Source: Ginglymostoma cirratum (taxonomy: Eukaryota). From it: 64,000 bases of DNA. This document shows, one piece after another, positions 3,585-50,479 of the stretch; the stretch's first letter is position 1, and every line of letters begins with the position of its first letter. Where the stretch lies: NCBI GenBank assembly GCA_024137785.1, contig JAHRHZ010000249.1, forward strand, positions 38,775,282 to 38,839,281, written 5' to 3'. Under the pieces are notes generated by a model. It had not been told where the DNA came from and made no database searches. It saw only the letters and a program-made list of their open reading frames with translations. A program made the position numbers and the translations under genes.

Positions 3585-3818
3585 CTCAGTCGAGTTTTCC
3601 TTGTTTATTACTATGCAGTCCTGTTACATAACAGTTCTGCAAAACTGGGATATGTACAAGGTTTCTAAAGTCCCATATTCAGTGACGTCTGACAAGAAAA
3701 CAAAATCACTTCCATTCATCATTTTGTGCTGCTAGCTTTATAAGAGGAATTCAAATATGCTGAAGTGATGCCAGGTCTGCCCGTTATCATTGTTGCATTA
3801 CCAGTACACAGTCTAAAA
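3585..3818 (+). pseudogene. Candidate disabled exon with TBC-like GYVQG motif
   Basis: Polypyrimidine acceptor (ttttattcatagag) and gtaaga donor. 78 codons LSRVFLVYYYAVLLHNSSAKLGYVQGF*SPIF...ALPVHSLK with three in-frame stops. Confidence 0.3.
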
Positions 3819-4635: not shown

Positions 4636-4875
4636 GAGATAACAAGGTGTGGGGCTGGATGAACACAGCAGGCCAAGCAGCATCATAGGAGCAGGAAAGC
4701 TTGACGTTTCGGGCCTAGACCCTTCATCAGAAAATCTGGGATATGTACAAGGTTTCTAAAGTCCCATATTCAATGACATCTGACAAGAAAACAAAATCAC
4801 TTCCATTCATCATTTTGTGCTGCCACACACCTTGTTATCTCGGATTCTCCAGCATCTGCAGTACCTTTTATCTCT
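4636..4875. mobile_element. PLE pLTR foldback insertion (family A) containing captured local DNA
   Basis: Left arm gagataacaagg...catcagaaaat; 88-bp copy of 3645-3732; right arm cacaccttgttatctc plus tail. TSD tctcttctgg(c/t)gg at 4624-4636 and 4871-4883. Confidence 0.9.
4701..4730 (-). ncRNA. Minimal type I hammerhead ribozyme motif (PLE-type)
   Basis: Reverse complement reads CUGAUGA-A-GGGU(CUAG)GCCC-GAAA-CGUC-AA: intact catalytic core, stem II and palindromic ACGU stem III. Confidence 0.75.
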
Positions 4876-21052: not shown

Positions 21053-21152
21053 TTTTTTTTCTGATGAAGGGTCTAGGCCCGAAACGTCAAGTTTCCTGCT
21101 CCTATGATGCTGCTTGGCCTGCTGTGTTCATCCAGCTCCACACCTTGTTATC
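21053..21152 (+). mobile_element. Single tail-less PLE pLTR arm (family A) with TSD
   Basis: TSD tccaatccaacat at 21040-21052 and 21153-21165; T-run then ctgatgaaggg...cttgttatc. Confidence 0.85.
21061..21090 (+). ncRNA. Minimal type I hammerhead ribozyme motif (PLE-type)
   Basis: ctgatga-a-gggt(ctag)gccc-gaaa-cgtc-aa; all core nucleotides present, predicted cleavage after GUC. Confidence 0.75.
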
Positions 21153-22049
21153 TCCAATCCAACATCCAACCAGGTACCAGTCCCCGAGCAGAGCTACATT
21201 TTGGTGCCAAAACATCTACATTATCCTTACAGCAGTAATTAACCTGCATTTTGTTTCCAGGCCAGTTCCCAATAGTTGTCTTTCCTTCTCTCCATTTTTT
21301 AAAAAGAAGCCTCTGTTTAAAGCTCCAAGTTCAATTCTCAACTGCAACTTACTGTTTCAAACCAAAACTGAGAAAAATAATGATCGTTTTAAACAAAAGG
21401 TTGATTAAAAAAAACATATTGTTTCTAACTCTAATTGGATCATGTTGCAGTGGATTCCATCACATGACTGTCCACCTACAATCACTCAACCTTCATGTTC
21501 TCCTCATTACCCAGCTAGCACTTCAACCCTAATGGTGACAGGCTAAGAACGCTTGTTGTGTTAGCCTCACTCCTCTATGCTGTAGAAACTAGTCAATCAA
21601 TTGCATTGTCTGAATAGAACATGCATGCATCAGTGTTGCATTATACCCTAAGTATACCGTTTATTGTAATTCTGGCTACAGCAAAATTGAAGAAGAGGAA
21701 GATTAAATTTTTTTTTTGTTTTTACCGGGTTCTTCCAAAGGCATTTTTTATGATCCAGTAGACTTAGGATAACCTGAGCAGACTAGTAAAGCCATGCACA
21801 AATGTGATACTCATAAGCAAACAAGCAATATTCAGCTTATTTCAAAATGAAGAACATGAAATACATGACTGACAAAGCTACAAGTGAGCAACAGAGGTTT
21901 TATCATTCATAATATTAGATGTTGTAGAACTTGTTACTCCAGATTTTATGAATGAATAGAAGGCAAATGACTTTCAATTCAGAAGTGTGAGGTGATGCAC
22001 TTCGGTCAGAAGAACATATAAAATAAAGTCGTTAAACATAAAATAAAGT

Positions 22050-23090
22050 CAGTCTGGCAGCTTTTGTGTAGAGACAAACTGAATTAACATACTGAGTCTG
22101 ATATAGCTCTCATTTAGAAGTGAAACAGGTTGGAAGATGATGTTTTTTATGCTGTTGACAGAAGGGGAGGAGGAACGGACGGAACGGATGGTGAGTTTTG
22201 CCCAGCACAAATAAAATCAAAGGCAGTGCTAATATTGGTAAAGAAGAAATTGAGATATAAAATATGTGTAAACGAGTGTTGTGAAAAGGGGGAAATGGCT
22301 TAAAGCAAATCCAACAAGAGAAAAACAAGGCATGGGCCATGGTTGGAATGGGTTGTAATCAAAATGGAGGACAAAGGTGTAAAATTGTTGAACTTAATAT
22401 CGAGGTAACAAGGTGTAGAGCTGGATGAACACAGCAGGCCAGGCAGCATCAGAGGAGCAGGAAAGCTGACGTTTCAGGTCTGGACGGTATTTGGACTTTT
22501 CGGGTTTCTTCAGAAAATTCTACAATACCTAATATTATGAATGAGAAAACCTCTGTTGCTCGCTTGTAGCTTTATCAGTCGTGTGCATTACATGTTCTTC
22601 ATTTCTGAAGAAGGGTCCAGACCAGAAATGTCAGCTTTCCTGCTTTTCTGATGCTGCTTGGCCTGCTGTGTTGATCCAGCTCTACACCTTGTTAATCTCA
22701 GATTCTCCAGAGTTGGCAGTTCCTCCTCTCTCCGAGCTTATTATGGAGTCGTGAAGTGATGTGTTGTCCCTCTAGCTTTTATTGAACTTCATTGGAACAC
22801 AGCAGTGGGAAGGAAATATTTGCATGGGAGCAAGAGGGTTTATTGAAGTGATGAATAATCAGAAAGTCAAGTTCTTACAAACAGAGCAGAGGTATTCTGC
22901 AAAGTTGTTACCCAGTCTTAGTTTGGTCTCAGCAATGTAAAGGCATTATGAACAGTGAATACTATACAGTACATTGAACGAGGTACAAATAAAATGCTGC
23001 TTCAGATGCATTTGGGACCTTGGACGCTGACAGGCAAGAAGAGGTAAAAGGGCAAGTGTTCCACCTTCTCTGAGTGCATGGCAAACTGCA
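22050..23090 (-). mobile_element. Old Penelope-like element 3' part
   Basis: Decayed pLTR near 22050-22120 and sequence homologous to the GIY-YIG region of 7185-8390 at 22740-23080. Confidence 0.65.
22402..22732. mobile_element. PLE pLTR foldback insertion (family A) containing captured local DNA
   Basis: Two inverted arms; spacer 22518-22604 is an inverted copy of 21845-21929; degenerate TSD gaacttaatat / gagcttattat. Confidence 0.9.
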
Positions 23091-36554: not shown

Positions 36555-38400
36555 TTCGACCGTAAGGCGAAGGGACAGAAATAGACCCTTCAGCCCATTG
36601 AGTCTGTTCCGCCATTCAGTGAGATCATGGCTGATCTGATAATCCCCAACTCCACTTTCCTGTTTTTCTCCCCATAACCCTTGATTCCATAATGGATAAA
36701 AATTGCAGCCTTGAATATACTTAATGACCAGCCCCAACAGCCCACTGCAGTAAAGAATTCCACATTCACTACCCTCTGAGAAAAGAAAGTCCTCCTCAAG
36801 AGAGTGAGCCTTACATCTGTTGTAGGAAAAGTTTTGGAAAGGATTATAAGAGATAGGACTTATAATCATCTAGCCAGCAACAATTTGATTGGAGATAGTC
36901 AACATGGATTCGTCAAGGGCAGGTCGTGTCTCACAAACCTCATTGAGTTTTTTGAGAAGGTGACCAAACATGTGGATGAGGGTAGGGCAGTTGACGTGGT
37001 GTACATGGACTTCAGTAAAGCCTTTGATAAGGTTCCACATGGTAGGCTATTGGAGAAAATGCAGAGGCATGGGATTGAGGGAGATTTAGCAGTTTGGATT
37101 AGAAACTGGCTTTCTGAAAGAAGGCAAAGAGTGGTGGTTGATGGAAAATATTCAGCCTGGAGTCCGGTTACTAGTGGTGTGCCACAAGGATCTGTTTTGG
37201 GACCACTGCTGTTTGTCATTTTTATAAATGACTTGGACGCTGACATAGGTGGATGGGTTAGTAAGTTTGCAGATGACACTAAAGTCGGTGGAGTGGTGGA
37301 CAGTGTGGAAGAATGTTGCAGGTTGCAGGGAGACTTGGATAAACTGCAGAATTGGGCTGAAAGGTGGCAAATGGAGTTCAATGCAGATAAATGTGAGGTG
37401 ATTCACTTTGGGAAGAATAATAGGAAGGCAGAATACTGGGTCAATGGAAAGATTCTTGGTAGTGTGGATGTGCAGAGGGATCTTGGTGTCCAGGTAAATG
37501 GATCCCTGAAAGTTGCCACCCAGGTTGATAGTGCTGTTAAGAAGGCATACGGTGTGTTAGGTTTCATTGGTAGAGTGATTGAGTTCCGGAGCCGTGATGT
37601 CATGCTGCAACTGTACAAAATGCTAGTGCGGCCTCACTTGGAATATTGCATACAATTCTGGTTGCCCCATTAGAGGAAGGATGTGGAAGCATTGGAAAAG
37701 GTGCGGAGGAGATTTACCAGGATGTTGCCTGGTCTGGAGCGAAGGTCTTATGAGGAAAGACTGAGGGACTTGGGTCTGTTCTCATTGGAGAGAAGAAGGC
37801 TAAGAGGGGATTTAATAGAGACCTACAAAATGATCAGAGGATTAGATAGGGTGGACAGTGAGAGTCTTTTTCCTAGGATGATGACGTCGGTTAGTACGAG
37901 GGGGCATAGCTGCAAATTGAGGGGTGATAGATTTAAGACAGATGTCAGAGGCAGGTTCTTTACTCAGAGAGTGGTAAGGGCGTGGAATGCCCTGCCTGCC
38001 AATGTAGTTAACTCAGCCACATTAGGGGCATTTAAACAGTCCTTGGATAAGCATATGGATGATGATGGGATAGTGTAGGGGGATGGGCTTAGATTAGTTC
38101 ACAGGTCGGCGCAACATCGAGGGCCGAAGGGCCTGTTCTGCGCTGTATTGTTCTATGTTCTATGTTCATCTCTGTCTCAAATGTATGAACACTTATTCTG
38201 CGATTATTCTCTCTGGTCCTAGACTCTCCCCCAAAAGGGAAACAACTTTCTACACCTACCTTGACAAGTCCCCAAAGAGTATTATAACAAGGTCATCCTT
38301 ACTCTTCTATATTCCAATAAGTACAGGGTCAATCTATTCAACCTCCTTATAAGACAATCCCTCCATACGTGATATCAGCCTAGTGAATCGCCTCTGGACT
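36555..38400 (-). mobile_element. Older CR1 3' fragment split by the young CR1 insertion
   Basis: MRRTFFSQRVV at 36590-36799; the host sequence resumes at about 38168 (cctcctca|tctctgtc). Confidence 0.75.
36800..38166 (+). mobile_element. Young 5'-truncated CR1 LINE with near-intact RT
   Basis: ORFs 36804-37673 (QHGF, DFSKAFD, GVPQGSVLGP, FADD) and 37683-38078 are in one frame separated by a single stop; ends in (gttctat)n. Confidence 0.95.
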
Positions 38401-41721: not shown

Positions 41722-41935
41722 AATTAAGAACTGCAGATGCTGGAAATCAGAGACAAAATCAGAAATTATTGGAATAACTCAGTGGGTCTGGCAGCATCTG
41801 TGAAGAGAAAGCAGAATTAACATTTCAGGTCCAGTGACCCTTCTTCAGATTAGGTTACTGGACCTGAATCATTAATTCTGTTTTCTCTCCACAGATGCTG
41901 CCAGATCTGGTGAGTTATTCCAGCAATTTATGTTA
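41722..41935. mobile_element. PLE pLTR foldback insertion, family C
   Basis: Arms tctggcagcatctgtg / cacagatgctgccaga with extra tail; minus-strand CUGAAGA-A-GGGUC..GACCU-GAAA core. Confidence 0.8.
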
Positions 41936-42049
41936 TTATTCTAATGAATGTTTATTTAAGTAACTTCTGGTAATATTTGATGAGGTTTACTTTGGTAGAT
42001 TTTAAGACAGCAGGGAAGTGTACTGGCATAAGTATTCTGGTCTTATTTA

Positions 42050-49672: not shown

Positions 49673-49902
49673 TAAAAACCGAAAGAACTGCAGATGCTGT
49701 GAATCAGGAACAAAAACAGAAGTTGCTGGAAAAGCTCAGCGGATCTGGCAACATTTGTGAGGGAAAAAGTCCCGCATGTAAACTGATGTTTTCCCAGCTG
49801 CCATTAGTTCTGAGGAAGGGTGACTGGAGTGAAACATGAACTCTGTCTTTTTCTTCACAGATGCTGCCAGACCTGCTGAGCTTTTCCAGCAACGTCTATT
49901 TT
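49673..49902. mobile_element. PLE pLTR foldback insertion, family C
   Basis: Arms gttgctggaaaagctcagc / gctgagcttttccagcaac; TSD tgttaacgcacaccca / tgttaacacataccca at 49657-49672 and 49903-49918. Confidence 0.85.
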
Positions 49903-50479
49903 TGTTAACACATACCCAGCCTTAAATATTCCTCTCGTCTTTCACCTTATCTGCTGGTGGCTGTGTCTTTAACTATCTTGTTGTACACATTGAAACCCCC
50001 TTCTGTCACCTTTCCACCTTAGTCTCCTCTTAAGTTGTTTGAAATCCATTTCTCCGACAAAGCTTACGGTCACCTTCATTAATACTTCCAAGGTAAATTT
50101 CTGAGTTTGTTAGAGCAAGAACACTTCCTTAATTTTGCACCTAAACATTGGCAAAAAGTCAGCAGTAATCTCAAGGAAATAGCATAAATGATAAAAGCAG
50201 TGATTCTGAAGATTCTGTGTTAATATCACAGTGAGAGATGGGATCCATGGAGATGTCAGGCATTTATCTTTAAATGCAAAGTATTAAGAAAATAAATCAG
50301 CACTGGGGATTTTTTTTTGCTATGATTGTTTTTAACCTGTGCTGCCCTCTACCCTGGCAACTAACAAAGTTAATTTTTCAATATTACTTACTTTGATGAA
50401 TGGAATTCAATGTAATCATTCGAATACAGTATTAAAGTTTTAAATAGCAAACAAGCAAAAGTCAATTCTGATCAATTTT

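What the first reader, a model, noticed from the sequence alone, without database searches (positions are those of the whole stretch)
22402..22732. Second, independent capture of local DNA, in inverted orientation
Seen: spacer 22518-22604 is the reverse complement of 21845-21929, about 600 bp upstream, and is more diverged than the 4636 case, so older. A further ~20-nt filler (ggtatttggacttttcgggt) interrupts the left-arm hammerhead stem. Two captures of similar length (85-88 bp) in one window suggest a regular feature of the mechanism rather than an accident.
Basis: seen in the sequence. Interest (0 to 1): 0.75.

Follow-up and report, generated by a model that had tools for sequence, protein, structure and literature searches.

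The report
Penelope hairpin insertions capture nearby DNA
A hairpin-shaped copy of a Penelope-like jumping gene holds an 87-base copy of DNA from about 470 bases away, as do an estimated 3% of such hairpins in this genome; it is likely a repair scar left when two DNA copies, likely made from one RNA at both ends of the cut, were joined.

Summary
Confirmed. 22518-22604 is the reverse complement of 21845-21929 (88-89% identical) and has no other match in the 4.36-Gb genome. The host element is a two-armed, head-to-head Penelope-like (PLE) insertion: one arm has the tail, one lacks it, and a decayed 15-nt target-site duplication surrounds both.

Capture recurs but is not the rule. It occurs in 32 of 200 listed loci with 30-180-nt spacers, about 3% of 3,714 two-armed elements. 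Captured segments run 25-177 nt (median 64, no 85-88 peak) and come from either side, in either orientation, a median 300 nt away.

Most likely both ends of a staggered cut prime a cDNA, and host microhomology-primed (polymerase-theta-like) synthesis copies flank DNA while joining them. The enzyme is untested.

Two unexpected results. Some hairpins are re-transcribed, A-to-G hyper-edited and reinserted elsewhere, two families carrying captured host DNA. In 4 of 4 informative insertions both halves share one editing pattern, pointing to twin priming on a single RNA.

Flank-templated inserts are known for LINEs, and inverted arms for PLEs. I found no report of this combination. The origin of the 20-nt filler is unresolved.

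The parts
21841..21932 (-). Host-DNA source of the captured segment (core 21845-21929); single copy apart from the spacer
   Evidence: held in its flanks by relatives' contigs
22390..22404 (+). Left copy of the target-site duplication (12 of 15 nt match the right copy; last 3 nt overlap the arm)
   Evidence: read from sequence
22402..22485 (-). Left arm: inverted pLTR fragment without the tail; inferred cDNA primed from the left target end at the inner start site
22486..22505 (+). 20-nt filler replacing 2 nt of hammerhead stem II; resembles short re-copies of the arm, origin unresolved
   Evidence: best 12-mer match to an arm 10 of 12, reached by 21 of 300 shuffles
22506..22517 (-). Remainder of the left arm up to the usual arm end
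22518..22604 (+). Captured spacer, an inverted copy of 21845-21929; microhomology 1 nt at the left junction and 5 nt at the right
22603..22732 (+). Right arm: sense pLTR fragment with the ~33-nt tail (about 22700-22732); inferred cDNA primed from the right target end
22605..22632 (+). Minimal hammerhead core motif in the right arm (CUGANGA, stem II, GAAA, GUC), decayed at one position; no Rfam hammerhead hit
   Evidence: read; layout as in PMC11167929 and PMC4209133; Rfam negative
22734..22748 (+). Right copy of the target-site duplication
4636..4875 (.). Comparison locus: full tail-less left arm, 91-nt direct capture (4733-4823) of 3641-3732, truncated tailed right arm, ~13-nt duplication

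Best explanation
The spacer is an inverted copy of host DNA about 470 nt upstream, set between the two head-to-head arms of one Penelope-like insertion, and it likely arose as a templated repair insertion when two cDNAs, each likely primed from one end of a staggered target cut, were joined by host microhomology-primed synthesis (polymerase-theta-like end joining). Steps: (1) The GIY-YIG endonuclease cuts both strands about 13-16 nt apart (duplication shown; cut inferred). (2) Each 3' end primes reverse transcription, one at the tail site and one about 33 nt further in, probably on the same RNA molecule (inferred from shared editing patterns). (3) Both cDNAs mostly stop just before the hammerhead core (shown), leaving two non-complementary 3' single strands. 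(4) Most joins are short or patchwork (shown). In about 3% one end anneals by a few bases to flank DNA tens to thousands of nt away and copies 25-180 nt before the final join (product shown; enzyme inferred). (5) The hairpin can later be transcribed, A-to-I edited and reinserted, carrying the captured DNA to new loci (progeny shown; ADAR inferred from the A>G pattern).
For: Local templating: 34 segments in 33 loci at 83-100% identity. The own locus gave the best hit for 25 of 27 spacers tested against 97 ten-kb loci; the exceptions are a reinserted copy and a part-repeat spacer. Single events: duplication-like repeats of at least 10 nt flank 27 of 32 capture loci. Same age as the insertion: arm-arm identity 94.8% vs spacer-source 95.1%, Spearman 0.35, p 0.047, n 33. 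Patchwork: two segments from opposite flanks in L150, and short spacers built of repeated bits of the arm ends, as described for polymerase theta (PMC12426944 passages). Two separate cDNAs: the tail-less half reaches further upstream in 13 of 22 loci, the tailed half in 8, equal in 1. A Poseidon PLE protein cuts and extends both strands from two start sites that bracket the tail (PMC11167929). One RNA: both halves share their A>G sites in 4 of 4 informative insertions: 12 of 12 (L085), no difference in a stretch with 21 A>G (L200), 7 of 7 (L205) and 8 of 8 (L206). Three separate insertions of one family share only 10-11 of 18-26 sites pairwise.
Against: Polymerase-theta inserts are generally under 25 bp (PMC12426944); these are longer (median 64) and distant (median 300 nt). 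Junction microhomology does not identify the priming end. At least 2 nt occurs on the source side in 11 of 20 direct captures and on the far side in 4 of 20; for inverted captures 2 and 4 of 14. L150 needs at least one template on a strand that simple resection would remove. No genetic or biochemical test was possible. For the one-RNA step: 9 of the 12 edits in L085 are common to all three insertions of its family, and its halves share two non-edit substitutions, so a donor with edits already fixed in DNA is not excluded. The founder of that family was not found within 15 kb of its host source (one stretch there reads N). The age correlation is weak.
Confidence: 0.6

Rival explanations
1. The PLE reverse transcriptase itself makes the capture: at the end of its RNA it switches template onto exposed flank DNA or a nascent host transcript at the target, copies it, and the ends are then joined.
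For: Length and distance exceed typical polymerase-theta inserts. Many spacers hold jumps to other parts of the element's own RNA. Both segments in L150 lie on one strand in 3'-to-5' order. L1 ORF2p is said to extend DNA ends on DNA templates (PMC11702581 passage).
Against: Substitutions between spacer and source show no strand bias or editing (A>G 26, T>C 24, C>T 21, G>A 20). Short iterative patchworks look like host alt-end-joining. LINE 5' extra nucleotides depend on the host cell (PMC4245944 passage). Host transcription direction was not determined for any locus.
Confidence: 0.22
2. The capture came after insertion: a perfect palindrome broke at its centre (cruciform or hairpin cleavage) and was repaired with a locally templated insert.
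For: Long palindromes are fragile (established knowledge, recalled). The locus folds into a strong hairpin (z -16.4). The spacer was not recovered from contigs of a relative that carries the start of the left arm (such holes prove nothing).
Against: Arm-arm and spacer-source divergences are equal on average. Captured loci were selected for both arms reaching the usual end, so centre loss is not needed. In the 4636 locus the capture sits between a full and a truncated arm that cannot form a perfect palindrome.
Confidence: 0.11
3. The palindrome forms by self-priming or fold-back of one cDNA or an antisense template (model of PMC3846280), and the spacer is the loop.
For: The two halves come from one source and share private variants and edits. 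The model was proposed for PLE head-to-head junctions.
Against: The tail-less half is the longer one in 13 of 22 loci, in the 4636 locus and in L205 and L206, so it cannot be copied back from the tailed half. The tailed half cannot be copied from a half that lacks the tail. Both target strands are extended in vitro.
Confidence: 0.05
4. The match is chance, or spacer and source belong to a dispersed repeat, or the locus is an assembly artefact.
For: A few spacers are repeat-derived (L149, L078, L138 match 8-20 other loci). No independent contig covered the spacer.
Against: E 4e-29 in the window, 2 hits genome-wide, 10-12% divergence between the copies (an assembly duplicate would be near-identical), and dozens of like loci.
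Confidence: 0.02

Closest known systems
Endonuclease-bearing Penelope-like elements (Penelope/Poseidon type; PAc of PMC11167929; Adineta Penelope of PMC3846280)
   Same: pLTR with a minimal hammerhead, 30-40-nt tail on one end, inverted 5'-truncated copy, target-site duplication, RT followed by GIY-YIG. Host DNA between pLTRs was reported in Adineta.
   Different: In the passages read, the Adineta captures were not traced to the insertion's own flanks, and the head-to-head join was ascribed to self-priming. Here captures are short, flank-derived and sit at the join, and edited progeny point to two cDNAs from one RNA.
Flank-templated inserts at LINE junctions (ZfL2-2/CR1-2_DR 5' extra nucleotides, PMC4245944; L1 templated insertions, 22 of 3,598 in bioRxiv 2024.08.27.596794 and 3 cases in PMC11702581)
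   Same: Short host segments copied from near the target during integration, with microhomology.
   Different: Those join a cDNA to the genomic end, and one paper prints templates within 15 bp of the site. Here two cDNAs are joined to each other, the duplication is kept, templates lie a median 300 nt away, and the estimated rate is about 3% against 0.6%.
L1 twin priming
   Same: Both target ends prime on one RNA, and the two cDNAs are end-joined head to head.
   Different: L1's second primer anneals internally by microhomology and copies an adjacent part of the RNA. Here both starts are fixed, about 33 nt apart, and the same stretch is copied twice, giving a hairpin.
Polymerase-theta templated insertions (PMC12426944)
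   Same: Flank-derived, either orientation, iterative patchwork, 1-6-nt microhomology.
   Different: Longer and more distant than the usual under-25-bp inserts; dependence on the enzyme is untested.

Membership tests
EN+ Penelope-like element | [quoted passage not shown] | tested here: met
   Frames upstream of the same arm in other loci: RYIDD motif in L092 (no Pfam RT hit, frameshifted copy) and Pfam GIY-YIG E 1.3e-5 in L029 (1 of 3 frames scanned hit). The motif with cysteines reads directly from L092 DNA. No intact ORF was seen.
EN+ Penelope-like element | Inverted 5'-truncated copy next to a direct copy, with a 30-40-nt tail on one end | tested here: met
   feature as in PMC8557442
EN+ Penelope-like element | Target-site duplication around the whole unit | tested here: met
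   12 of 15 nt at this locus; at least 10 nt in 27 of 32 capture loci
EN+ Penelope-like element | Minimal hammerhead ribozyme in the pLTR | tested here: inconclusive
   Core motif visible at 22605-22632 and laid out as in PAc; no Rfam hammerhead hit; cleavage untested
Penelope/Poseidon clade | RT phylogeny and absence of the Neptune/Nematis linker zinc finger | not tested
   No tree was built
Polymerase-theta templated insertion | Insert copied from DNA flanking the break, with microhomology and patchwork | tested here: met
Polymerase-theta templated insertion | Generally under 25 bp | tested here: not met
   25-177 nt, median 64; the search counted only segments of 25 nt or more, so shorter ones are missed
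Polymerase-theta templated insertion | Genetic dependence on POLQ | not testable with these tools
   needs mutant cells
L1-type twin priming | Both target ends primed on one RNA | tested here: inconclusive
   Shared editing in 4 of 4 insertions; a pre-edited genomic donor is not excluded
L1-type twin priming | Second cDNA copies an adjacent, almost non-overlapping part of the RNA | tested here: not met
   The halves overlap over 134-445 nt
Fixed palindromic non-autonomous element (MITE-like) | One conserved spacer shared by many copies | tested here: not met
   Spacers differ from locus to locus; shared host spacers seen only in two small reinserted families

The most novel reading that the evidence does not exclude
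Penelope-like elements integrate by double-ended priming on a single RNA: both ends of a staggered cut start at two fixed sites about 33 nt apart and copy the same stretch twice, so each two-armed insertion ends in a cDNA-to-cDNA join left to the host. That join sometimes captures flank DNA from up to kilobases away, and the resulting hairpins become ADAR-edited, non-autonomous templates that carry captured host DNA to other chromosomes. This would explain the tail, the inverted pLTR and host capture with one mechanism and replace the self-priming model.
Probability: 0.55. Interest if true: 0.75.

Novelty: new variant of a known kind. Interest (0 to 1): 0.6.

Why it matters
How PLEs form their inverted and tailed insertions is called undefined in PMC8557442, and the in vitro work leaves the steps after priming unvalidated (PMC11167929). 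This genome offers thousands of junctions that record the joining step, and natural RNA-editing barcodes that tie both arms to one template. That makes the two-ended model, and the role of host end joining, directly testable. It also shows a route by which short host sequences are duplicated locally and then dispersed. The single locus is a neutral repair scar; the value lies in the pattern.

Tried and rejected
- A preferred 85-88-nt capture length: rejected (8, 17, 18, 22, 23).
- An extra C at arm ends as a copied RNA cap: dropped, because the C is often the partner arm's templated base.
- Rfam hammerhead: no hit at gathering or E-value thresholds; the only strong hit was a generic hairpin model.
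- Local or element source for the 20-nt filler: no clear source in the window; match to the arm inconclusive.
- Founder of the L084 spacer family near its host source: not found in 30 kb.
- Position-chosen blocks on C12 and C14 (200 kb) read all N and gave nothing.
- 15 single arms from those blocks showed no locally templated filler.
- Sequencing runs: no RNA holder listed. No contig covered the spacer in its own place and no empty-site joint appeared among the joints shown; neither is evidence.
- L089 and L091 had partial local matches but were left out of the count: another arm family, or a truncated arm with no clean structure.
- L085's apparent local match is a second copy of the element, not a host source.
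- Earlier-findings look-ups returned nothing.
- Comparison with CR1 junction fillers and the host gene's direction: not done.

Full report
OBSERVATION. The spacer 22518-22604 is the reverse complement of 21845-21929. BLAST gives 88.4% over 95 nt, E 4e-29, and nothing else above chance in the window. In the 4.36-Gb own genome the spacer has 2 matches, itself and this source. The 4636 spacer likewise has 2, at 97%. Contigs from two related organisms carry the source in its flanks without the 2-nt insertion seen in the spacer, so the source is ancestral. The 20-nt filler at 22486-22505 is real. Its best match to an arm (10 of 12) is reached by 21 of 300 shuffles, so its origin stays open.

ANATOMY. 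From left to right: duplication (22390-22404), inverted arm without tail (22402-22517, with the filler), spacer, sense arm with a ~33-nt tail (22603-22732), duplication (22734-22748; 12 of 15 nt match). The arm is the terminal repeat of a Penelope-like element. Elsewhere the same arm follows frames with an RYIDD motif and a GIY-YIG domain (1 of 3 frames scanned hit Pfam, and no intact ORF was seen). It carries a minimal hammerhead motif that Rfam does not detect. An inverted truncated copy and a one-sided tail are typical of PLEs (PMC8557442, passages). That the genome is shark-like is my recollection of its repeats and was not tested.

HOW COMMON. Exact 15+15-nt patterns count arm-to-arm spacers genome-wide: 2,870 of 0-29 nt, 277 of 30-59, 156 of 60-90, 124 of 91-120 and 287 of 121-180. 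Each search listed its first 50 loci. In the four longer classes I examined DNA for 31, 27, 24 and 23 of the 50, with flanks of 1.5 or 5 kb; the rest I judged element-derived by eye from the listing. A local source of 25 nt or more was found in 6, 12, 7 and 7 of 50. These counts include two whose source follows another arm, one that starts in the tail and three that are partly repeats. Extrapolated, this is about 128 of 3,714, or 3%. The figure misses shorter, more distant and longer captures, and the patterns favour young copies; this locus itself does not match them. In position-chosen DNA outside the window (366 kb unmasked), 0 of 13 close inverted pairs had a capture, one having a masked centre; the window has 2 of 7.

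SHAPE OF THE CAPTURES. The 34 segments in 33 loci are 25-177 nt long (median 64) and lie a median 300 nt from the element, at most 4,034. Twenty are direct and 14 inverted; 19 are on the tail-less side, 12 on the tail side and 3 unassigned. The own locus gave the best hit for 25 of 27 spacers against 97 loci. Duplications of at least 10 nt flank 27 of 32. Arm-arm identity (94.8%) equals spacer-source identity (95.1%), with a weak correlation (rho 0.35, p 0.047). That fits capture at the time of insertion and gives no sign of later homogenisation of the arms. Some spacers join pieces from both flanks (L150), and short spacers are often patchworks of arm-end sequence.

TWO cDNAs. On each side the arm reads as cDNA grown inward from a target 3' end. 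A Poseidon PLE protein cuts and extends both strands, starting at two sites that bracket the tail (PMC11167929, parts 1-2 of 4 read). The tail-less half reaches further upstream in 13 of 22 loci, the tailed half in 8, and they are equal in 1. This excludes fold-back copying of one half from the other at many loci and speaks against the self-priming model of PMC3846280 (passages).

SECOND-GENERATION COPIES. The captured spacer of L010 (C12, with local sources) recurs unchanged between arms on C9, where no local source lies within 5 kb. Another spacer occurs in arms on C2, C29 (twice) and C140, with a plain host copy on C71. These three insertions share a donor flank and have arms with 12-21 A>G changes on one strand, differing between insertions. 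The founder was not found. Two motif searches gave 13 and 6 matches against 5 for a control motif. Five of the first 12 loci and all 5 of the second set were hyper-edited, 2 loci being in both sets; the other 7 had only 2-3 A>G. With C140 that makes 9 hyper-edited loci. ADAR editing of the hairpin RNA is the inference; ADAR-edited L1-driven inserts are known (PMC11702581, passages).

ONE RNA. Four of the 9 loci have both halves over an edited stretch, and in all 4 the halves share the donor junction and the edits: 12 of 12 (L085), no difference within a stretch holding 21 A>G (L200), 7 of 7 (L205) and 8 of 8 (L206). In L205 and L206 the tail-less half is the longer. The simplest reading is twin priming on one RNA molecule. 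Against it: 9 of L085's 12 edits are common to its whole family, and its halves share two non-edit substitutions, so a donor with edits fixed in DNA remains possible. The exact edited motifs of L200 and L205 occur only at those loci.

MECHANISM. Shown: flank-derived inserts at the head-to-head join, intact duplications, independent extents of the halves, and reinserted edited hairpins. Inferred: a staggered double cut, two cDNAs from one RNA, and joining by host microhomology-primed synthesis (0.6). The main rival is template switching by the PLE reverse transcriptase onto local DNA or nascent RNA (0.22), because the inserts are longer and more distant than the usual under-25-bp polymerase-theta inserts (PMC12426944, passages) and microhomology does not fix which end primed. 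Later breakage of the palindrome (0.11), fold-back (0.05) and chance or artefact (0.02) are weaker.

KNOWN AND NEW. Flank-derived extra nucleotides are known at zebrafish L2/CR1-type junctions (PMC4245944, passages). Templated insertions are known for L1: 22 of 3,598 (bioRxiv 2024.08.27.596794, passages) and 3 cases. Host DNA between pLTRs is known in Adineta (PMC6431247, passages), and minimal hammerheads in PLEs (PMC4209133, passages). A 2026 preprint on animal retrozymes gave no passage on capture, editing or target sites in a term search. Nine library searches showed no paper on local capture at PLE inverted junctions, PLE twin priming on one RNA, or edited PLE hairpin progeny. The library lacks most subscription papers, and I saw no supplements; those of the L1 papers may describe more distant templates.

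VERDICT. The feature is real and recurrent, but a minority outcome of variable length. It works like a LINE templated insertion at a twin-primed junction, in a PLE setting where this seems undescribed. New variant of a known kind; interest 0.6.

Noticed in passing
genome-wide arm ends, e.g. window 22603, 21059, 4732: Most arms end within a few bases of one site just before the hammerhead core, at the start of a C-rich tract: 2,870 exact pairs with spacers under 30 nt. A transcription start (initiator-like motif) or a reverse-transcriptase stop could explain it; unresolved.
   Followed up: partly
L085:4819-6628 (G000 C29): 1.8-kb insertion with a 13-nt duplication in which both halves run through arm, captured spacer, edited arm and donor flank; a third arm inside is edited on the other strand.
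   Followed up: yes
L129 and L085 donor flank: The flank carried with the L084 spacer family looks LTR-like (label recalled, not tested); it travels as a 5' transduction of 60-450 nt.
   Followed up: no
L015:883-932 and L110:4344-4391: The captured segment follows a nearby arm of a related family, giving 15-16 nt of homology at the junction instead of microhomology.
   Followed up: partly
L058:1516-1559: Spacer made of a few telomere-like hexamer repeats between the two arms.
   Followed up: no
window 21059-21154: Single tail-less arm with a ~13-nt duplication and a T-run filler: one-armed insertions also occur.
   Followed up: partly
listing: Only 4 of 50 short-spacer loci differ between arms at the subfamily-diagnostic A/T site, so the two arms nearly always come from one subfamily.
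   Followed up: partly
L066/L067 (C9) and C12:51253651/51254192: Identical patchwork spacers repeated about 540 nt apart, possibly further two-half copies of hairpin donors or tandem duplications.
   Followed up: no
window 41726-41940 and 49683-49906: A second, older family of related inverted arms with the same layout.
   Followed up: no
window 36780-38078: Long open frames within LINE-like repeats (label recalled; not scanned).
   Followed up: no
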